The notes under the pieces: generated by a model
What the model saw: only the letters and a program-made list of their open reading frames with translations
Told to the model about the DNA's origin: nothing
The model's database searches: none
Shown: positions 1 to 51,738 of the stretch, in pieces
Position numbering within the stretch: position 1 is the stretch's first letter
Layout of the letters: the number at the start of each line of letters is the position of its first letter
Source of the DNA: Escherichia phage VEc74
DNA length: 64,000 nt
Sequence record: MT932213.1
Strand: one strand, 5' to 3'
Position numbers and translations under genes: made by a program

Positions 1-2178
1 TTAGGCCGCAAGGGCCTTCATAGTTTTAGCGATTTGGGAAACTTCATCATCACTTAAAGAGTTGCGATAACCGATGAAGTCAGAAACAATACGGAATTTC
101 TTGGTAAACTCAGCAACCATTTTATCACTGTTTTTTGAAGCATTATTTGATAATACATCAAAAAGATTAGTTACTGTCCAGATGTCATGACCGATGGTAT
201 CTCTTCCACCATTAAAATATACACCCTGTAATGAACTAACCATATTAGCAAGTCGTGTATATTCTTCAGAAACTTCATCTACACTGAAGTACTTCATCAT
301 AAAATCTAACTCAGGATACTTGATAATTTTATCAATATATCGTTTAGCTGAACTTGAATAACCTACATACTTATCATAATCTACATCATCAAAAGCATCT
401 ACATATAAATCACGCAAAGCTTCAAAAATACATTGGCACTGACCGAGTTCTTTTACCTTTTTCTGTAAAAGCGGACGAATAACATAAAATTCATTAATTC
501 CAATAAGATTAGCCATACGAATCAAAATATTCATAGATGGATGACAAAGAGATGTAGTACCATCCATAGAGAAAATATCAGAACGATGCATATACGCTAC
601 ATAACCAGTAATTTCATCTGCTTCTGACGTAAGTGTAAATAGTTCCTCTTTTTCCCAACGCCCATCTTTAATTTCAAACTTAAATGCTGTAGCAGCTTTA
701 GGACGAGGAGCTTTACTTTTAACTACCTTTGGAATATAGCTTTTAACTAAAGCTTCAATTTCTGACAAATAATGAATGTTAACTTCATCACTTTCGAACA
801 TCGCCATAATATCAGGGAGTAAATCAATCTGCGATTCTACTTCTGGATTAATAAACAGAAGACGCTCATTGTGATGAATATTCAAAGTGTTATTAAATTC
901 ACTATCATCTAACGCACGTGCTAATCCACGGACAATATTAACACGATTTTTAATATCATCAATAACGATATTAATTTTTGTTGTATTAATACCAAACAGA
1001 CGATAGCTTGATGCAACGGCTGAAGTTTCATGGCTTTGCTTAATACGTTTCAGCCGAGGGTCAAGATTTACTTCATACACAACTCCTGCATTGCATAACT
1101 TACTATCAGGTTCAAACATGCTCTGCATCTTTTTATATGACAGATTTTTAGTCGTGAATTTGACTGAATTACTAATCATATAATCTCGAGCAGAATACCC
1201 CATCTTCATCAATTCACGATATGTATGACGAGGAGATGTAGATTCTTTAAATCGTTTTACATCTTCATTAAATGCTTTCTCACTGAGTTCTTTAACTCGT
1301 TCAATAATATTTTTACGAGTACGATCATCCAGTGAAAGAGCCTCGCGAGATGGAGCAATATCAAGTGAACCCATTGGAAACTTAATGTAATTCACTTCAT
1401 TGCGAATGCTTAGCCAGTTACGGTCTCTAATAACACCATCGATAGGATAAACAATACCGCCGTAGATAGCATACAATCCACCACGATCAGGCCAGTATCT
1501 TTCTGGATTTACGCCGTAATAATCATCGAAATCCGGAAAATAATCAATTTCGCGGTCAAGACCATTAATGATAGCCAAATCTTTGAACGGTCGCATGATA
1601 TAAGAAACTTCATAAGCAAAGTTTCTAAAGTCTTTTTCTTCAACTGGAACTACGATTTCAATACCAGTTTTATCATCTGGACCCATTTCTTTTACGAATG
1701 TAGGTTTAATTTGTGGACCATCGCCATCCATGTAAGCTACATAACCACGAATTTCACCTTTATGATATGAAGTAATACTAAACGTATCAGTATAACTAAA
1801 CGGAGATTTAGAACCTAAACCAAATCCGCCAATAAAGTCATTAGATTCAGCTTTAGATGAACTGAAGTATGAATTATACAGACCAGGAGAATTATCATCA
1901 CCTTGAATATCAAAATCACTCATACCCGGACCAAAATCTCGGCAAACAAATCGCGGGTCTAATCGTCCTGGAACTTGAATGATAAATTTTTCAGGATTTC
2001 CATTGAGAGCATGGGCATCAATCATGTTAGTAATCAATTCACGGACTACTGCGCGAATCTTGTTTGTATACAAATCAGATGACAGAATTTTAAATACTTT
2101 AGGAGATGCTGTGATGCTAAATGCTTTTGATTTAGAACCATTACCAAGAATTGTTTCTTTTTCAGTGGTGATAATCAT
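1..2178 (-). CDS. rIIA: rIIA protein (rapid-lysis / exclusion locus)
   Basis: 725-aa ORF whose stop codon is at the window edge; length and position directly upstream of the gene 39 region match T-even rIIA. Confidence 0.85.
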
Positions 2179-2447: not shown

Positions 2448-4264
2448 TACTGGCTCATCCATTCTTTGCGAAGGTCAGCATTATCTCCCATGAGCATTTC
2501 AAAAAGCTCTTTCCAGTTCTCAGGAAGTTTAACAACATCATATACTGGGTTTTGAATCATCTCACGATATTCAGATTTTTCCAAAGAGCCAAGTCCTTTA
2601 ATATAACGGATGCTATGTTTAGGTAGAGCATCTTTGGCACTCTCATATTCAGCGACTGTATAAAACCATTCTTGTTTTTTACCGACCTGAGCGATGATTA
2701 CAGGAGTTTTGACAAAGCGAATTCGTCCTTGCTCAAACAGTTCTGGCCAATTACTAAAAAATCCGAGCAGAGAAGGATAAATGCTTCCTAGACCATCATG
2801 GTCAGCATCAGTCATAATAGCAATATTATGATAATTCAAGTTTTCAGCTTTTTCACCAAGAACTAATCCAGTGATTGCGCAAATATCAAATAGTTCTTTG
2901 TTTTTAAGCATATCTGCATAAGACATACCCCAACTGTTGAGAACTTTACCACGCAATGGATAACCACCGTGAAGTTCTTTATCACGAACATCAATAAGAT
3001 ATCCGATAGCCGAATCACCCTCAGTCAAGAAAAGAGTAGTGTCAGCATCTTTACCACAAAGATTCGCTTTGATATGTTTATGAACCTTAGCTTTAGAAGC
3101 CTTTTTAGCTGCTTTAGTTTCTGCTGCTTTTTCTGCCGCCAATTTACGAGCCAAAGCAGCTTCAATAATCGGCATTAGAATTGCTTCATTATTTAGAATA
3201 GCACGTGAAATCTTTTTAGCATCAAGTTGAATATGACTACGAATTTCGCCAAATGGAGAAGTCAAACGCTCTTTAGTTTGAGAATCAAATCGCATGTTTT
3301 TCATATCACGGACAAACATAACGATAGTCAAACATTCTTTGACACGCGCTTTAGTCACATCAATTTTGAACTTACGTTTGATTTGTGGAATAAGGTCTTC
3401 ACAAATATCATCCATAACACAGTCAATATGATGGCCACCATTCTTAGTATGAATGTTATTCACATAAGTTAATTGACGAAAACCATCCGGTGAACGACCA
3501 ACCGCAATAGAACAATTTTCTTGTTCTTGAACAATAGCATGTTCATCATACTGTCGTGCATATTTCTTAAAATTACCCTGAACCTTTTTACCATTAAAGG
3601 TAAATTGAATATCAGGATAAACAACAGCAAGTGTCTGGAGACGATCTAATGTAATGTCAAGATAAACTTGGGACAGCTCATTAGTTTCAAATGACATAAA
3701 ATCAGGAATGAAAGTAACACGAGTTCCTTTCCATTTTCCAGGAATATCTTCCCATGATTTATTTTCCATGCCATTTGAACAACGAACTACAATATTATTT
3801 TGACCGTCGCCAGTTTCACCGACAAACATCACAGAAAAAATGTTTGTCAAACTAGAACCAACACCATTCATACCGCCAGTGACGCGCTCTTTATCATCAC
3901 CGAAGTTACCACCTGCTTTTGGAATAGTCCATGCGGCAACAGGACCAGGAATTTCTTCACCGGTAGGTGTTTTAACCATCGCCTGTGGAATACCACGACC
4001 GTTATCTTCAACTGTTACTTGATTGTTTTTAATAGTAACATTAATTTTATTTGCGAATTTAAACTTAGTACGAATACCTTCATCTACTGAGTTATCGATA
4101 ATTTCATCAATAAGCTTAACAAGACCAGGTACATACTGAACACTTTCCCATTTACCAAACAGAAAGCGCTCATGCATTTCATTAGCTGAAGAGCCAATGT
4201 ACATGCCGCTACGCTTTTTGATATGTTCAATATCGCTCAGAATTTTAATTTCATTCTTAATCAT
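2447..4264 (-). CDS. 39: DNA topoisomerase II large (GyrB-like ATPase) subunit, continuous gene 39+60 form
   Basis: 605-aa ORF with GHKL ATPase and TOPRIM-like motifs; uninterrupted, unlike the split 39/60 arrangement of T4; ATG is the second codon of the tracked ORF. Confidence 0.9.
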   Translation of the reverse strand: MIKNEIKILSDIEHIKKRSGMYIGSSANEMHERFLFGKWESVQYVPGLVKLIDEIIDNSVDEGIRTKFKFANKINVTIKNNQVTVEDNGRGIPQAMVKTPTGEEIPGPVAAWTIPKAGGNFGDDKERVTGGMNGVGSSLTNIFSVMFVGETGDGQNNIVVRCSNGMENKSWEDIPGKWKGTRVTFIPDFMSFETNELSQVYLDITLDRLQTLAVVYPDIQFTFNGKKVQGNFKKYARQYDEHAIVQEQENCSIAVGRSPDGFRQLTYVNNIHTKNGGHHIDCVMDDICEDLIPQIKRKFKIDVTKARVKECLTIVMFVRDMKNMRFDSQTKERLTSPFGEIRSHIQLDAKKISRAILNNEAILMPIIEAALARKLAAEKAAETKAAKKASKAKVHKHIKANLCGKDADTTLFLTEGDSAIGYLIDVRDKELHGGYPLRGKVLNSWGMSYADMLKNKELFDICAITGLVLGEKAENLNYHNIAIMTDADHDGLGSIYPSLLGFFSNWPELFEQGRIRFVKTPVIIAQVGKKQEWFYTVAEYESAKDALPKHSIRYIKGLGSLEKSEYREMIQNPVYDVVKLPENWKELFEMLMGDNADLRKEWMSQ

Positions 4265-5572: not shown

Positions 5573-5787
5573 TAATAAATTTCCTTCCAGTAAGTTGTGC
5601 CATCTTCAGTAATTTCACGAAATACACCGTAAATTGGTTGTTTATCACCAACCTTTTCATACACATAAACCGAAGTCAAGTGAGTAAACTTAATGGTGTG
5701 TTCCTTTTGAACTACTACCAAATCTGGATCAAATAATACATCTTCAAATTCGTCATTAGTGCAGTTCTGAACAATTTTACGTTTCAT
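5572..5787 (-). CDS. hypothetical protein (cef position, 71 aa)
   Basis: 71-aa ORF with ATGA-type overlap to the upstream gene. Confidence 0.4.
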
Positions 5788-5800
5788 TACAATTTCCTCA

Positions 5801-6070
5801 TTAATTGAACAGTGGAGCGATGCGTTTCAGAAGAGTAGCAGTACCTTTGGCAAATTTTACATCATGAAAAACAGTTTCTTCTTCTGTAACAACACGAACT
5901 TTAATGTTTTCACAATCCCAATTTTTACGAACAATCTTCAAAAGCTCCAGTAAATCTTTACATTCAGCAATATCGATAACACATCCACGAGAATCTTCCA
6001 TTATCGCACGATAACCGTAAGCCATACCATAATCGTTGAAAGATTGCTCGATGATAATTAAGTTTTCCAT
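5801..6070 (-). CDS. hypothetical protein
   Basis: ORF starting MENLIII at the ATG; the tracked upstream extension uses a TTG. Confidence 0.45.
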   Translation of the reverse strand: MENLIIIEQSFNDYGMAYGYRAIMEDSRGCVIDIAECKDLLELLKIVRKNWDCENIKVRVVTEEETVFHDVKFAKGTATLLKRIAPLFN

Positions 6071-6091
6071 TTTATTCTCCAAGTTGTTTTC

Positions 6092-6140
6092 TGCATCAGT
6101 AGTTGATATTGATATAGTACCATAATCAACTACTGATGCA
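6092..6140. repeat. perfect 16-bp inverted repeat (stem-loop) with a 17-nt loop
   Basis: TGCATCAGTAGTTGAT ... ATCAACTACTGATGCA; the loop carries a promoter -10-like TGGTACTATA. Confidence 0.7.
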
Positions 6141-6168
6141 TATAGTTTTATGAAAAAAATTTTAAACT

Positions 6169-6657
6169 TTATGCATAGAGAGCATTGCTATAGTGTTTAA
6201 TCCAGCTTTCAGGAATGACTTTATATGTTCCTAAAAATACCACATTGTACAGCTTAACGCCATCTTCTACCCATTGATCAGTAATGTATCCACACATAGC
6301 GCGAGTATAAACAGCCTTTCCATCATCTTTGATAAATTTAAATTCACAAGGAGCAATGAACTTGATAGCTTGACCGAGTTTCCACTTAAAGTCTACACCT
6401 ACATGCGAAGTATCAATCGTTTCAATTCCTTTAGCAGGAACAGCTTTCAAAAACGCAGGCTCAAGAAATTTCCATCGAACATAACCAAACTGAGGTTTAG
6501 ACTTTCCATCTTTAGGAATGATACGCACTTTTACTTCAGAATCTTCATCTTTAACACCATGTTTAAGCTGAATGCTTACAATTTCAACCAATTTTCCTGC
6601 TGCCTTAGAACGGGATTTATCAGATACACGAGCAATTTCACCGATATTAATATTCAT
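6169..6657 (-). CDS. motB: MotB-like protein
   Basis: 162-aa ORF at the motB position (T4 MotB is 162 aa). Confidence 0.5.
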   Translation of the reverse strand: MNINIGEIARVSDKSRSKAAGKLVEIVSIQLKHGVKDEDSEVKVRIIPKDGKSKPQFGYVRWKFLEPAFLKAVPAKGIETIDTSHVGVDFKWKLGQAIKFIAPCEFKFIKDDGKAVYTRAMCGYITDQWVEDGVKLYNVVFLGTYKVIPESWIKHYSNALYA

Positions 6658-6733
6658 AATTATCTCTCACTTGTTAAAAAGATTTTATACTCCACAGGAC
6701 CATTATACTCTGGTCCCAAGAGTTTGTAAACTA

Positions 6734-7273
6734 TTAATTCAAAATAGCTACCACTGCACTACGAGGTACTACGCTAAAATCACCTGCATGAACAACGTTC
6801 AGAAGTTCAACACCATCTTCAATCCACTGGTCTGTTACCCAACCACAGACCGAAACAAATGGGGTCTTGATAGCTACAGCACGAGTTAGAAGGTCAGTAG
6901 GATCGCATTCTTGAAAGAGGATGAACTCTGCTTCAAAAACTATAGTTTTAATTACTTCATCATTATCTAAACGGTGTACTCGAATCACGTAAGCTTTATT
7001 CTTATCATACCAGTTACTTTTTGAAAAGCTTTTAATCACAAACTCGCCTTCACCAAAAACATTAGTCAATGCTTTATAACCCAAATTTAGTTCAGTAGTT
7101 TTAATTTCAGTTTCAACCAGTTTGTAGGTTTTGCCGATTTCAATAGCGGTAGTCATAGTAGGTTCCTTAATTTCCAGCGGTTTAACAGGGCATACATAAG
7201 TGCTTACAACATCAAAATCAATCAGCTTAGCTACCGGATTTGGTGTGTATTCAGGATTATAATTAAATTTCAT
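6734..7273 (-). CDS. MotB-related paralog
   Basis: 179-aa ORF whose C-terminus (GWVTDQWIEDGVELLNVV) parallels that of the adjacent MotB-like protein (GYITDQWVEDGVKLYNVV). Confidence 0.45.
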   Translation of the reverse strand: MKFNYNPEYTPNPVAKLIDFDVVSTYVCPVKPLEIKEPTMTTAIEIGKTYKLVETEIKTTELNLGYKALTNVFGEGEFVIKSFSKSNWYDKNKAYVIRVHRLDNDEVIKTIVFEAEFILFQECDPTDLLTRAVAIKTPFVSVCGWVTDQWIEDGVELLNVVHAGDFSVVPRSAVVAILN

Positions 7274-7275
7274 AA

Positions 7276-7776
7276 TTATCTCATTTCAATAAAATCTACG
7301 AGTTCAGCATGCGATTTGCGGAACATTACTTGGTGCCCACCAATGATAACTTCATCTTCAGGAACTTCATATATAGCAAGATAAAATCCTTTAGAAGCTA
7401 ATTCTTCACGCTCTTCTCGTGTGAACCATCTCATCATATCATATTCACTAGCGAAAGCAAAATGATAAAGAGCTATAAACCATCCTGGAATATGATATTC
7501 TACTCCAACATAATCTTTCTTGAACTTAGTATTAATTACTATATTAGCGTTTTTAACTAATAGTTTATCTTCGTGTGGTAAAGGAATTCTTTTATTATTA
7601 TCGCTATGATGCATAAAATTAGGTCTGTCATAACCTACGTGTAATAGCCACTCTTCGCTCCATGAATCTATTATACTCCTGTACGGCGTTATTTGAACAC
7701 AAAGATTTCGACGTATTGTTATAGCATCTTCATAATCAAGAATACTAAACGATGATTCAACACGATAAATTTTCAT
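7276..7776 (-). CDS. hypothetical protein
   Basis: 166-aa ORF downstream of an early promoter. Confidence 0.45.
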   Translation of the reverse strand: MKIYRVESSFSILDYEDAITIRRNLCVQITPYRSIIDSWSEEWLLHVGYDRPNFMHHSDNNKRIPLPHEDKLLVKNANIVINTKFKKDYVGVEYHIPGWFIALYHFAFASEYDMMRWFTREEREELASKGFYLAIYEVPEDEVIIGGHQVMFRKSHAELVDFIEMR

Positions 7777-7803
7777 TTTATTATCCTCAGTAGCTATGGT
7801 GTT

Positions 7804-7833
7804 ATAATACCATAACTAACCGAGGAAGTAAAC
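7804..7833 (-). promoter_or_regulatory. T4-type early promoter
   Basis: GTTTAC, 17 bp, TGGTATTAT on the minus strand. Confidence 0.5.
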
Positions 7834-7839
7834 AACTTT

Positions 7840-8523
7840 TTATCGTTTTGTTGGAAGAGACAGAGGATCGCAATCTTCCTCTGACGGAGCATCTTCAAGA
7901 CCCATAGCGTATCGCAAAGCATACTTCATCATCAGGATGTCTTTCGCACAGTCATGAATAGAATCATGCGCAACGAATCCATCTAAAGTTCCTTTTGGAA
8001 GAGGACACGTGGTCATATCACGAACAAGCAGAAGTGCTTCAATTCTGGTACGAATATCACGCTGATTCCAGAATTTACATGGTTCTAACTTAAATGTGTC
8101 AAGCTCATTCTCAGAAACACCATTAAAACGTTGAATATCACGAATAAGATCGACTAAAATTGGAAAATCAAACGACATTCCACGGCACCAGCCTTGAGAT
8201 TTCCAAGGATCGATATTATGTGCATTGATGTAATCATTAAATTTTGCAATACCGTCAATAGTGCTTACATCTTCATCTGATGGTGCAATATTTTTTCTAG
8301 CTTCAGGTGATTGATTTTTCCACCATTCAATAGTGCTTTTAGTAAAAAGACGATGTCCTTTTTGGCTTTTTAAATCAAATTTGATTTTAATGCCACGTGA
8401 AACTAATTCATCAAACGTTTCAACGACTTCTGGATTAGGGTCAAAAGCAATTACAGCCAAATCAATAACAGCTGCTTTTTCACCACTTCCCATTGTTTCA
8501 AAATCTATAATAAAATCAAACAT
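7840..8523 (-). CDS. dexA: exonuclease A (DnaQ-like 3'-5' exonuclease)
   Basis: 227-aa ORF with an N-terminal DxE exonuclease motif (FIIDFETMG). Confidence 0.8.
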   Translation of the reverse strand: MFDFIIDFETMGSGEKAAVIDLAVIAFDPNPEVVETFDELVSRGIKIKFDLKSQKGHRLFTKSTIEWWKNQSPEARKNIAPSDEDVSTIDGIAKFNDYINAHNIDPWKSQGWCRGMSFDFPILVDLIRDIQRFNGVSENELDTFKLEPCKFWNQRDIRTRIEALLLVRDMTTCPLPKGTLDGFVAHDSIHDCAKDILMMKYALRYAMGLEDAPSEEDCDPLSLPTKR

Positions 8524-50724: not shown

Positions 50725-51738
50725 TCATTTATAATAACTTCGGTGGTTTTCAAGATAAACCTTCTCAAGGAAGTCATCCCAAAAACCCATGTCTACTTTT
50801 TGCTGCATACCGTTCTTAGAAGCTTCAGTAGATGCTGCTTCTACTTGATCGACCACATCTTCCAAAAACTCTTGAACCGTTTTAAATGGATGTTTACCCA
50901 ACTTCACGTCGAGAATAAATGGAGCGTCTTGAAGTGGATAAACCAAGTCACCAGTTTTGTAAATTTCCAATAGTTGAAGTCCACCACGACAAGCATGGCT
51001 CAGAGCTTTCCAGTCAATACCTTCGTTGGCTTCGGCCTTACGGGCACGTTCACCATATTCAGCATCTAATTTGTTCAGTGACTGCTTAAGCTCAATAAGA
51101 GAAAGCGTTGTCTGATATTTACGACCCAACACAGTGTAGAACGTTTGTGGGCCTGTTTTCTCATGATTATGGAACACCCATTCACAGAATTCGTTTTCTG
51201 GAAGACGATGCTTAATATCTTCAACTTTAGTACGACGCTGCTTAATGGAACCGTCTTCTTGGTAATCAACCCATTGCTCAGGGATTTGATTAACTACTTT
51301 CAATACATCACGTAATGCAGCCAAACGAGAACCCTTGACCCCGTATTTAGAAGCTTGCTTACGGACATATCCTAAATAGGATTTCATGTTAGTCGTATAA
51401 AAACGAGAACGGTTGTCTTGAATAAACTTCCACACATCAGGCAAATCAGATTTAACCATTAGTTCAGGTGGAGTGTGAAGCATATCTAATGCTACGGTTT
51501 CACCATCTGCTGCTAATTTAAAGAAATATTTAAGACTGTATAGTTCATGGTCAATATCATCTTTAGTGTTTTTAGATGATGTGTTGTTAGTGTTTTTACT
51601 CATGTGCTCTTTGACATTTCCGATAAGAATATCACGAGCAGGAGGAACAAAAATTTCTTTAAAATCTACATCAGATTCTGGGGTAGAAGTTCCATAAAGA
51701 TGACTACCAAAATAGCTTTTCATTACTGTTTTCATCAT
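50725..51738 (-). CDS. predicted nucleotidyltransferase (Pol-beta superfamily fold)
   Basis: N-terminal GS-x9-DVD motif (GSHLYGTSTPESDVDF) with downstream acidic residues. Confidence 0.55.
   Translation of the reverse strand: MMKTVMKSYFGSHLYGTSTPESDVDFKEIFVPPARDILIGNVKEHMSKNTNNTSSKNTKDDIDHELYSLKYFFKLAADGETVALDMLHTPPELMVKSDLPDVWKFIQDNRSRFYTTNMKSYLGYVRKQASKYGVKGSRLAALRDVLKVVNQIPEQWVDYQEDGSIKQRRTKVEDIKHRLPENEFCEWVFHNHEKTGPQTFYTVLGRKYQTTLSLIELKQSLNKLDAEYGERARKAEANEGIDWKALSHACRGGLQLLEIYKTGDLVYPLQDAPFILDVKLGKHPFKTVQEFLEDVVDQVEAASTEASKNGMQQKVDMGFWDDFLEKVYLENHRSYYK

What the first reader, a model, noticed from the sequence alone, without database searches (positions are those of the whole stretch)
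6169..7273. Adjacent MotB-like paralogs sharing a conserved C-terminal domain
The 162-aa and 179-aa ORFs have dissimilar N-termini but near-parallel C-termini (...CGYITDQWVEDGVKLYNVVFLG... versus ...CGWVTDQWIEDGVELLNVVHAG...). This indicates tandem duplication of a domain with divergence of the N-terminal portion.
Basis: seen in the sequence. Interest (0 to 1): 0.4.

Follow-up and report, generated by a model that had tools for sequence, protein, structure and literature searches.

The report
T4-like motB and motB.1 paralogs
Two neighbouring early genes of a T4-like phage share a small C-terminal beta-barrel fused to unrelated N-terminal domains; the similarity is real, but it was published in 2021 for T4 MotB and MotB.1, so the finding is ordinary.

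Summary
ORF 6169-6657(-) is MotB: a full-length Pfam PF17613 match, 154/162 residues identical to T4 MotB. ORF 6734-7273(-) sits where T4 has motB.1.

- **Similarity:** the two proteins align over 32 aa at 56% identity (E=3e-12), and the stretch is not low-complexity. Profile methods extend the match over the whole C-terminal domain, 57 aa in one and 73 aa in the other. MotB carries a ~20-aa hairpin insert there.
- **N-termini:** they are not diverged copies of each other. MotB has a basic KOW-like barrel. The 179-aa protein is acidic (pI 4.9) and has a short conserved N-terminal motif plus a barrel weakly related to the T4 MotB.1 N-terminal domain.
- **Prior work:** Son et al. 2021 (PMC7827196) described the shared C-terminal domain, the different N-terminal domains and a possible duplication. 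Kim et al. 2025 (PMC12152347) described the MotB.1 N-terminal fold.
- **What I add:** relatives exist with a KOW domain fused to a MotB.1-type C-terminal domain. This favours an old duplication followed by replacement of the N-terminal domain, not gradual divergence.
- **In passing:** the T4 reference motB.1 (119 aa) is cut short by one extra G that other T4 genome records lack.

Interest is low.

The parts
6169..6657 (-). motB: 162-aa basic early protein (pI 9.30), including the stop codon
   Evidence: Pfam PF17613 over 1-162, 359 bits. 154/162 residues identical to T4 MotB. Same position as T4 motB. AlphaFold2 mean pLDDT 83.8, two beta-barrels joined by a disordered linker.
6451..6657 (-). 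MotB N-terminal KOW-like barrel (residues 1-69, pI 9.75)
   Evidence: Five strands between residues 8 and 67 in the AlphaFold2 model. Foldseek finds tandem Tudor/Agenet/KOW proteins. HHpred KOW assignment in PMC7827196 section 3.1. Charge.
6172..6390 (-). MotB C-terminal barrel (residues 90-162), with a lysine-rich beta1-beta2 hairpin that the paralog lacks
   Evidence: Strands 97-109, 115-131, 134-141, 144-149 and 153-156, pLDDT above 90. Alignment A4.
6193..6300 (-). Shared core in MotB (residues 120-155, AMCGYITDQWVEDGVKLYNVVFLGTYKVIPESWIKH)
   Evidence: Only 52% nucleotide identity to the other copy, so no recent gene conversion.
6702..6730 (-). Promoter-like site TTTACA-17-TATAAT in the 76-bp gap between the two genes; a likely promoter for motB alone
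   Evidence: 11 of 12 consensus positions, the best site in 5700-8000. This is a consensus match only. The region as a whole has no more sites than shuffled sequence.
6734..7273 (-). motB.1-position gene: 179-aa acidic protein (pI 4.90), including the stop codon
   Evidence: PHROG 2333 over the full length, E=1e-81; T4 MotB.1 falls in the same PHROG. 68% identity over 74 aa to re-sequenced T4 MotB.1. Lies between motB.2 and motB as in T4.
7157..7273 (-). N-terminal extension (residues 1-39) carrying the conserved short motif LIDFDVVSTYVCPVKPLEI; predicted disordered
   Evidence: pLDDT about 30, yet 20 of 40 positions are invariant in alignment A2. 9 synonymous versus 3 non-synonymous codon changes against HY01, WG01 and G28. 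Kept in frame behind different N-termini in phages VR5 and UPEC01. The same motif sits directly before the C-terminal domain in KOW-type relatives.
6908..7156 (-). N-terminal barrel (residues 40-122), an alternative allele of the T4 MotB.1 N-terminal domain
   Evidence: hhalign against the T4-type domain: E=1.1e-4 over 77 columns. Both map to the same PHROG 2333 profile positions. Foldseek matches T4 P39415 over 121 columns, TM 0.58, but the model has low confidence. This DNA allele is in 387 phage records, the T4 allele in 154.
6737..6907 (-). MotB.1-type C-terminal barrel (residues 123-179, pI 4.3)
   Evidence: Predicted strands 132-136, 141-152, 155-162, 165-170 and 174-178 parallel those of MotB. 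Alignment A4. Charge.
6746..6853 (-). Shared core in the 179-aa protein (residues 141-176, SVCGWVTDQWIEDGVELLNVVHAGDFSVVPRSAVVA)
7276..7776 (-). motB.2 homolog (166 aa), immediately upstream and probably co-transcribed with the 179-aa gene (context)
   Evidence: Synteny with T4 motB.2. PHROG 1106. Only 2 nt separate it from the 179-aa start codon.

Best explanation
**Shown.** The window is the left end of a Tequatrovirus (T4-like) genome. The two ORFs are motB and the gene at the motB.1 position. They are old paralogs sharing one module: a small C-terminal beta-barrel, 57 aa in one and 73 aa in the other, whose last ~36 residues are strongly conserved (G-[WY]-[VI]-T-D-Q-W-[VI]-E-D-G-V-x-L-x-N-V-V). 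The N-terminal parts are different modules. MotB has a basic KOW-like barrel. The 179-aa protein has a short conserved motif followed by a barrel weakly related to the T4 MotB.1 N-terminal domain, which Kim et al. 2025 place with GoF and Frd.2.

**Inferred history.** An ancestral KOW + linker motif + C-terminal-barrel gene duplicated in tandem, and the C-terminal barrels diverged into a MotB type and a MotB.1 type. In the MotB.1 lineage the KOW domain was then replaced by another barrel. That barrel has since been exchanged between phages by recombination anchored in the conserved C-terminal coding sequence.

**Function of MotB, transferred from T4 experiments on a 95%-identical protein.** It is an abundant early protein that binds DNA tightly without sequence specificity. 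It co-occupies DNA with H-NS and StpA, changes H-NS-dependent repression, and doubles burst size.

**Function of the 179-aa protein, inferred with low confidence (about 0.25).** It is acidic and lacks MotB's lysine-rich hairpin, so it is unlikely to coat DNA as MotB does. The shared core is itself acidic and aromatic. It is therefore more likely a structural or protein-contact scaffold (self-association or a common partner) than the DNA-binding surface. On this view the variable N-terminal barrels set ligand specificity: DNA for the KOW domain, possibly RNA for the LSm-like barrel.
For: - **Identity and synteny:**
- **Shared module:**. There are only two copies in the window.
- **Fold:** the MotB model has two five-stranded barrels and matches tandem Tudor, Agenet, KOW and eIF5A structures. 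The strand pattern of the 179-aa C-terminal domain parallels that of MotB.
- **N-terminal domains differ:** the MotB N-terminal profile misses the 179-aa protein. It hits P0231, P0233, P0234, P0235, P0228, P0241, P0242 and P0244 at E=1e-9 to 4e-6. The C-terminal cores of those proteins are 62-85% identical to the 179-aa core, against 35-62% to the MotB core; the exception is P0244, at 53% versus 47%.
- **Single-copy relative:** a Klebsiella Kanagawavirus has one such gene at the syntenic site.
- **Cassette behaviour:**
- **Charge contrast:**
- **Small phage family:** only 34 clusters at 50% identity among 1.84 billion proteins.
- **Published function and prior description:** PMC6070864, PMC7827196, PMC12152347.
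Against: - The order of events (duplication first, then domain replacement) rests on architectures and percent identities, not on a rooted tree. Recombination could have placed a KOW domain onto a MotB.1-type C-terminal domain secondarily.
- The 179-aa model has low confidence (mean pLDDT 56.5).
- The link from its N-terminal domain to GoF is not significant (hhalign E=0.15), and the link to the T4-type domain is modest (E=1.1e-4).
- Son et al. assign the C-terminal domain to an OB/cold-shock nucleic-acid-binding fold and consider that either domain could bind DNA. Nothing here tests binding.
- T4 lacking motB.1 shows no phenotype in the laboratory, so no function for the paralog has been demonstrated.
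Confidence: 0.75

Rival explanations
1. Whole-gene tandem duplication followed by ordinary sequence divergence of the N-terminal half. 2021. On this view both N-terminal domains descend from the same ancestral barrel.
For: The genes are adjacent and on the same strand. Both proteins have two small beta-barrels. KOW, LSm and SH3-like barrels are topologically alike, so very deep homology cannot be excluded. The duplication was suggested in PMC7827196.
Against: There is no N-terminal similarity by BLASTP, hhalign or a MotB N-terminal profile. KOW-type N-terminal domains remain recognisable at E down to 1e-9 in proteins that carry MotB.1-type C-terminal domains, so time alone does not erase the signal. 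The N-terminal region is swapped as a cassette between otherwise 93-98% identical phages. It also occurs duplicated, or preceded by other domains, in some phages.
Confidence: 0.15
2. Partial duplication or domain shuffling only. On this view just the segment coding for the C-terminal domain was copied and fused to a pre-existing GoF-like gene, and the whole gene never duplicated.
For: The module is combined with at least four N-terminal contexts. A 43-aa remnant (P0246) fuses the MotB.2 N-terminus to the last 28 residues of the C-terminal domain, which shows that recombination occurs inside this sequence. goF lies about 600 bp downstream in the same gene block.
Against: The short 'DxDxxSxY...P..PL' motif lies between the KOW and C-terminal domains in KOW-type relatives. 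It is retained in the 179-aa protein and in P0240. This is easier to explain if a whole KOW-motif-C-terminal gene was the starting point.
Confidence: 0.1
3. The similarity is due to chance, low complexity or convergence.
For: The BLASTP alignment is short, only 32 aa.
Against: E=3e-12 by BLASTP and E=5e-14 by profile comparison. The composition is complex. The match extends over the full domain with profile methods and with matching predicted strands. The pair is conserved across hundreds of phage genomes.
Confidence: 0.01

Closest known systems
T4 MotB (Pfam PF17613; Patterson-West et al. 2018, PMC6070864; Son et al. 2021, PMC7827196)
   Same: The 162-aa ORF is its ortholog: 154/162 residues identical, full-length Pfam match, same genomic position, same two-domain architecture (KOW-like N-terminal domain plus C-terminal barrel).
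   Different: There are eight substitutions and nothing of note. My Foldseek hits put both halves nearest tandem Tudor, Agenet and KOW small barrels. eIF5A, the OB-fold hit cited in the paper, also appears among them. All hits are weak (best E=7e-4).
[quoted passage not shown] 2021; PHROG 2333)
   Same: The gene has the same position between motB.2 and motB. Its C-terminal domain is 68% identical over 74 aa. It belongs to the same PHROG. Proteins of exactly this 179-181-aa type (HY01, WG01, RB14 and others) are already in the paper's Table S4 and Figure S1.
   Different: The N-terminal domain is a different allele; hhalign detects the relationship to the T4 type only at E=1.1e-4. There is also a 39-residue N-terminal extension with a conserved short motif that T4 MotB.1 lacks. 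The T4 reference protein (119 aa) is in addition cut inside the shared core by a one-base insertion that other T4 genome records lack.
GoF / MotB.1 / Frd.2 LSm-like N-terminal domain family (Kim et al. 2025, PMC12152347)
   Same: The architecture is an N-terminal five-strand barrel, a linker and a variable C-terminal domain. Recurring sequence patterns are IEIGKTYKL vs [19 protein letters not shown] vs GMEPFKILD, and ILFQEC vs FFDEV.
   Different: Direct profile comparison with GoF is not significant (E=0.15). The structure model of the 179-aa protein is too weak to test the fold.
Tandem small beta-barrel readers and binders (53BP1 tandem Tudor, AGDP3 Agenet, Spt5 KOW6-7, eIF5A)
   Same: They have two consecutive five-stranded barrels of about 60 residues, and they are the best structural matches to the MotB model.
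   Different: There is no sequence relationship. E-values are 7e-4 or worse and TM scores are about 0.3, because the relative domain orientation is undefined. No aromatic-cage function is implied.

Membership tests
MotB (Pfam PF17613), tested on the 162-aa ORF | Full-length match to the family model above its curated cutoff | tested here: met
   359.2 bits against a 25-bit cutoff, residues 1-162 on profile 1-162. PHROG 1671, E=6e-78.
MotB (Pfam PF17613), tested on the 162-aa ORF | Position between cef and motB.1 in the early dexA-to-39 gene block | tested here: met
   Synteny with T4 and with phage G28.
MotB (Pfam PF17613), tested on the 162-aa ORF | Non-specific DNA binding, co-purification with H-NS/StpA, toxicity to E. 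coli | not testable with these tools
   Transferred from T4 experiments on a protein that is 95% identical (PMC6070864, PMC7827196). The basic pI of 9.30 is consistent.
MotB (Pfam PF17613), tested on the 179-aa ORF | Match to the family model above its cutoff | tested here: met
   34.3 bits against a 25-bit cutoff, but only residues 141-174 on profile positions 120-153. Membership is at the level of the domain, not the whole protein.
MotB (Pfam PF17613), tested on the 179-aa ORF | KOW-like N-terminal domain of MotB | tested here: not met
   The MotB N-terminal profile gives no hit at E<=10 with filters off. hhalign aligns the C-terminal 36 columns only.
MotB (Pfam PF17613), tested on the 179-aa ORF | Basic protein compatible with non-specific DNA coating | tested here: not met
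   pI 4.90 overall and 4.3 for the C-terminal domain. It lacks the lysine-rich hairpin of MotB.
MotB.1 group (Son et al. 2021; PHROG 2333), tested on the 179-aa ORF | C-terminal domain closer to MotB.1 than to MotB | tested here: met
   68% identity over 74 aa to T4 MotB.1, against 56% over 32 aa to MotB. Core identities.
MotB.1 group (Son et al. 2021; PHROG 2333), tested on the 179-aa ORF | Gene lies immediately upstream of motB and downstream of motB.2 | tested here: met
MotB.1 group (Son et al. 2021; PHROG 2333), tested on the 179-aa ORF | Full-length match to the family profile | tested here: met
   PHROG 2333, E=1.1e-81, residues 1-179 on profile 1-210.
GoF/MotB.1/Frd.2 LSm-like N-terminal domain family (Kim et al. 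2025), tested on residues 40-122 of the 179-aa ORF | Five-stranded bent antiparallel sheet homologous to the T4 MotB.1 and GoF N-terminal domains | tested here: inconclusive
   Against the T4-type domain: hhalign E=1.1e-4 over 77 columns. Against GoF: E=0.15. The AlphaFold2 model shows strand-helix-four strands at pLDDT about 55-65. Foldseek matches T4 P39415 with TM 0.58 over 121 columns.

The most novel reading that the evidence does not exclude
The shared acidic and aromatic C-terminal core may not be a nucleic-acid-binding OB fold. It may instead be a protein-contact module, used for homo- or hetero-oligomerisation or for docking on a common host partner such as H-NS/StpA-DNA complexes. 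The acidic MotB.1-type paralog would then act as a modulator or antagonist of MotB. The short conserved 'IDFDVVSTY..P.KPL' peptide appears at different positions relative to the barrels in different phages, and could be a portable linear motif that works together with that C-terminal domain.
Probability: 0.12. Interest if true: 0.45.

Novelty: already known. Interest (0 to 1): 0.15.

Why it matters
The pair itself adds nothing to what was published in 2021. Three by-products have modest practical value.

1. **Evolution of the locus.** Architectures in metagenomic relatives indicate that the N-terminal domain was replaced rather than diverged. The locus is thus a clear case of module shuffling among small beta-barrels in T4-like early genes.
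2. **Function of the shared domain.** The charge contrast between the paralogs argues that the shared core is not the DNA-binding determinant. This narrows where MotB's DNA and H-NS activity should be mapped.
3. **Reference error.** The T4 reference motB.1 is truncated by a one-base insertion, and the only functional tests of MotB.1 used constructs synthesised from that reference. Those negative results may need repeating with the 143-aa protein.

Tried and rejected
- **Possible third copy of the domain.** tblastn gave a hit at 51262-51456(-) with E=0.001. It lies inside a 337-aa nucleotidyltransferase (PHROG 388) and disappears with a profile of the domain, so it is chance.
- **Repeat proteins in the representative search.** The multi-stretch hits P0245, P0248, P0249, P0251 and P0252 match only about 19-26 profile positions each. 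P0245 and P0249, the two I read, are repeat proteins of the 'SGYATEQWV' kind. I treat all five as spurious.
- **Recent gene conversion between the two copies.** The cores share only 52% nucleotide identity, so I rejected this.
- **Sequence search of PDB with the domain profile.** It gave no hit at E<=10.
- **Rfam over the whole window.** It found nothing.
- **hhalign of the 179-aa N-terminal domain against GoF.** The result was not significant (E=0.15).
- **AlphaFold2 model of the 179-aa protein.** Mean pLDDT was only 56.5 because the alignment is shallow. I used it for the strand pattern only.
- **Terminator scan of 5700-8000.** It found none.
- **M40 as the true start of the 179-aa ORF.** One database entry (P0108) is annotated that way. 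I rejected it because codons 1-39 are under coding constraint and are conserved in frame in longer variants.

Full report
**What the window is.** The region is 96-97% identical to Tequatrovirus genomes such as vB_EcoM-G28. Gene order on the minus strand is dda, dexA.2, dexA.1, dexA, motB.2, [179-aa gene], motB, [93-aa ORF], cef, goF, 39.2. This matches T4.

**The observation.**
- ORF 6169-6657(-) encodes a 162-aa protein. It matches Pfam PF17613 (motB) end to end with 359 bits and is 154/162 identical to T4 MotB.
- ORF 6734-7273(-) encodes a 179-aa protein at the position of T4 motB.1.
- BLASTP aligns only 32 residues, but at 56% identity with E=3e-12.
- hhalign of the two family alignments aligns 36 columns at 98.2% probability, E=5e-14.
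- Pfam's motB model hits the 179-aa protein above its cutoff, but only at residues 141-174.
- The stretch is compositionally complex.
- PHROG profiles extend the relationship to 65-73 residues.
- A joint alignment (A4) shows correspondence across the whole C-terminal domain: 'DFKWKLGQAIKFIAP...CGYITDQW...' against 'DPTDLLTRAVAIKTP...CGWVTDQW...'. MotB has a ~20-residue lysine-rich beta-hairpin insert.
- A profile of the domain finds exactly two copies in the 64 kb. A weak tblastn hit at 51.3 kb was chance.

**It is already published.**
- Son et al. [quoted passage not shown] They suggest that one gene arose by duplication of the other.
- They catalogue 102 phage homologs in four categories. 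Their supplementary alignment and table include the 179-181-aa type found here, for example HY01, WG01 and RB14.
- Kim et al. 2025 (PMC12152347) describe the T4 MotB.1 N-terminal domain as an LSm-like/SH3-like barrel related to GoF and Frd.2.
- MotB's function was studied in PMC6070864 and PMC7827196. It binds DNA tightly and non-specifically, co-purifies with H-NS and StpA on DNA, alters H-NS-dependent repression, is toxic when over-expressed, and doubles burst size.

**Structure.**
- AlphaFold2 on a 57-sequence alignment gives MotB a mean pLDDT of 83.8. The model has an N-terminal five-strand barrel (residues 8-67), a disordered linker (70-83) and a C-terminal five-strand barrel (97-156).
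- Foldseek against PDB returns tandem Tudor (53BP1, UHRF1), tandem Agenet (AGDP3), KOW6-7 of DSIF and eIF5A. All hits are weak; the best has E=7e-4. MotB is thus a tandem small-barrel protein. Whether the C-terminal domain is better called SH3/Tudor-like or OB-like is not settled.
- The 179-aa protein models poorly (mean pLDDT 56.5). Its C-terminal strand pattern (132-136, 141-152, 155-162, 165-170, 174-178) parallels MotB's, without the long hairpin.
- The shared 36 residues correspond to the second half of strand 2 through strand 5 of the barrel.

**The N-terminal parts are different modules, not diverged copies.**
- A profile of the MotB N-terminal domain does not hit the 179-aa protein or GoF, even with filters off.
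- The 179-aa N-terminal domain (residues 40-122) aligns with the T4 MotB.1 N-terminal domain at hhalign E=1.1e-4 over 77 columns. Both occupy the same positions of PHROG 2333.
- A Foldseek match to T4 P39415 spans 121 columns with TM 0.58.
- The link to GoF is not significant (E=0.15).
- At the DNA level, window and T4 are 93-98% identical on both sides but unalignable from about 6860 to 7300. The N-terminal coding region is therefore an exchangeable cassette whose right-hand junction lies inside the conserved C-terminal coding sequence.
- The window allele is in 387 phage records and the T4 allele in 154.

**Wider family.** I ran a profile of the C-terminal domain against 1.84 billion representative proteins. 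It finds only 34 clusters at E<=1e-3, of which about 24 are convincing. Their architectures are:
- KOW domain plus MotB-type C-terminal domain.
- KOW domain plus a short 'VDTDVxSMY..P..PL' motif plus a MotB.1-type C-terminal domain (P0231, P0233, P0234, P0235, P0228, P0241, P0242, P0244). The MotB N-terminal profile hits these at E=1e-9 to 4e-6, and most of their cores are 62-85% identical to the 179-aa core (P0244 53%).
- T4-type barrel, with or without the motif, plus the C-terminal domain (P0230, P0240).
- Motif plus window-type barrel plus the C-terminal domain (this gene).
- Motif plus two tandem barrels plus the C-terminal domain (Gaprivervirus UPEC01, 251 aa).
- An extra N-terminal domain plus motif plus barrel plus the C-terminal domain (Dhakavirus VR5, 249 aa).

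A Klebsiella Kanagawavirus has a single KOW-motif-MotB.1-type gene at the syntenic site between a motB.2-like gene and cef. KOW domains accompany both C-terminal subtypes. The most economical history is therefore a tandem duplication of a KOW-motif-C-terminal-domain gene, divergence of the C-terminal domains, and then replacement of the KOW domain in one copy. This is an inference from architectures, not from a rooted tree.

**The N-terminal extension.**
- Residues 1-39 of the 179-aa protein are predicted disordered (pLDDT about 30), yet half of the positions are invariant.
- Codon changes against three phages are 9 synonymous to 3 non-synonymous.
- The segment is kept in frame behind other N-termini, so it is translated.
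- Its core, 'LIDFDVVSTYVCPVKPLEI', is the same motif that directly precedes the C-terminal domain in KOW-type relatives. MotB's conserved linker 'IETIDTSHVGV' may be its counterpart; I see this by eye and did not test it.

**How it probably works.**
- MotB is basic: pI 9.30 overall, 9.75 for the N-terminal domain, and the C-terminal hairpin carries six lysines.
- The 179-aa protein is acidic: pI 4.90 overall and 4.3 for the C-terminal domain.
- The shared core is acidic to neutral in both proteins and rich in aromatic residues.
- I therefore infer that the shared core is a structural or protein-contact scaffold, not the phosphate-binding surface. MotB's DNA binding would reside in the KOW domain and the lysine-rich hairpin. 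The paralog would not coat DNA.
- These functional steps are inference only. No function for MotB.1 has been demonstrated, and the T4 motB.1 deletion has no laboratory phenotype.

**Expression signals.** The best sigma-70-like site in the region is TTTACA-17-TATAAT at 6730-6702(-). It lies in the 76-bp gap between the two genes and would give motB its own promoter. This is a consensus match only. The 179-aa gene starts 2 nt after motB.2 and is probably co-transcribed with it.

**Side finding on the T4 reference.**
- AF158101.6/NC_000866.4 annotates MotB.1 as 119 aa ending '...GWVTDQWIGRWR*'.
- The sequence reads 'attgGaagatgg', whereas the window has 'attgaagatgg' and re-sequenced T4 (MT984581) encodes '...QWIEDG...' at that point.
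- Removing the extra G restores '...IEDGVELLNVVHAGEYSVVPRSAVVAILN*'.
- All thirteen other near-identical records match 550 nt of a 551-nt query. These are eleven T4 or T4T records plus RB55 and RB59.
- MT984581 and T4T annotate a 143-aa MotB.1.
- Kim et al. 2025 gave NC_000866.4 coordinates for their amber-mutant constructs, had their genes synthesised, and report a 13.8-kDa protein, so they probably used the 119-aa form. Neither paper mentions a frameshift.
- Their negative results for MotB.1 may therefore apply to a protein missing the last 28 native residues, including most of the shared core.

Noticed in passing
L002 (AF158101.6) 3292-3651(-) compared with L003 (MT984581.1) 370-801(-); corresponds to about window 6830: The T4 reference genome has one extra G inside motB.1 ('attgGaagatgg'). 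This truncates the protein to 119 aa in the middle of the shared core. Thirteen other near-identical records (eleven T4 or T4T, plus RB55 and RB59) match with a single gap, and the two checked encode a 143-aa protein. Kim et al. 2025 cite NC_000866.4 for their constructs and report a 13.8-kDa MotB.1.
   Followed up: yes
window 5801-6082(-): This 93-aa ORF between cef and motB lies on a ~210-bp segment (about 5855-6064) that is absent from T4. It is annotated as a hypothetical protein in phages G28 and RB51. It has no Pfam family, only chance-level hits.
   Followed up: partly
window 6092-6140: A long inverted repeat lies just downstream of the motB stop codon. As RNA on the transcribed strand it folds into a 16-bp stem, with a further 5-bp stem in its loop. 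Free energy is -27.8 kcal/mol, z=-7.3 against shuffles. It is 98% conserved in T4. There is no T-run, so it is not a classical terminator; it may be a processing or stability element.
   Followed up: partly
window 7157-7273(-); also P0231, P0234, P0235, P0240, P0244: The short conserved peptide '[IV]D.D[VIL]..[SCH].Y..P..PL' is predicted disordered. It sits at the N-terminus here, but between the N-terminal and C-terminal domains in relatives. It behaves like a portable linear motif of unknown role.
   Followed up: partly
L009 263-1018(-) (phage UPEC01, Gaprivervirus); L008 505-1254(-) (phage VR5, Dhakavirus): There are longer versions of MotB.1. UPEC01 (251 aa) has two tandem copies of the N-terminal barrel. 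VR5 (249 aa) has an additional ~80-residue N-terminal domain with no PHROG match.
   Followed up: partly
P0246 (43 aa, from the representative search): This is a deletion remnant that fuses the first 17 residues of MotB.2 (MKIYRVESSFSILDYED) directly to the last 28 residues of the MotB.1 C-terminal domain. It is comparable to the 29-aa 'Category 3' peptide that Son et al. noted in RB69. It shows that recombination occurs inside the conserved core.
   Followed up: no
L012 1671-2555 (Shigella phage SHSML-52-1, Mosigvirus): The same locus carries two tandem genes annotated as MotB-like (151 and 139 aa), plus a further 174-aa gene before cef. Copy number at this locus therefore varies between genera.
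   Followed up: no
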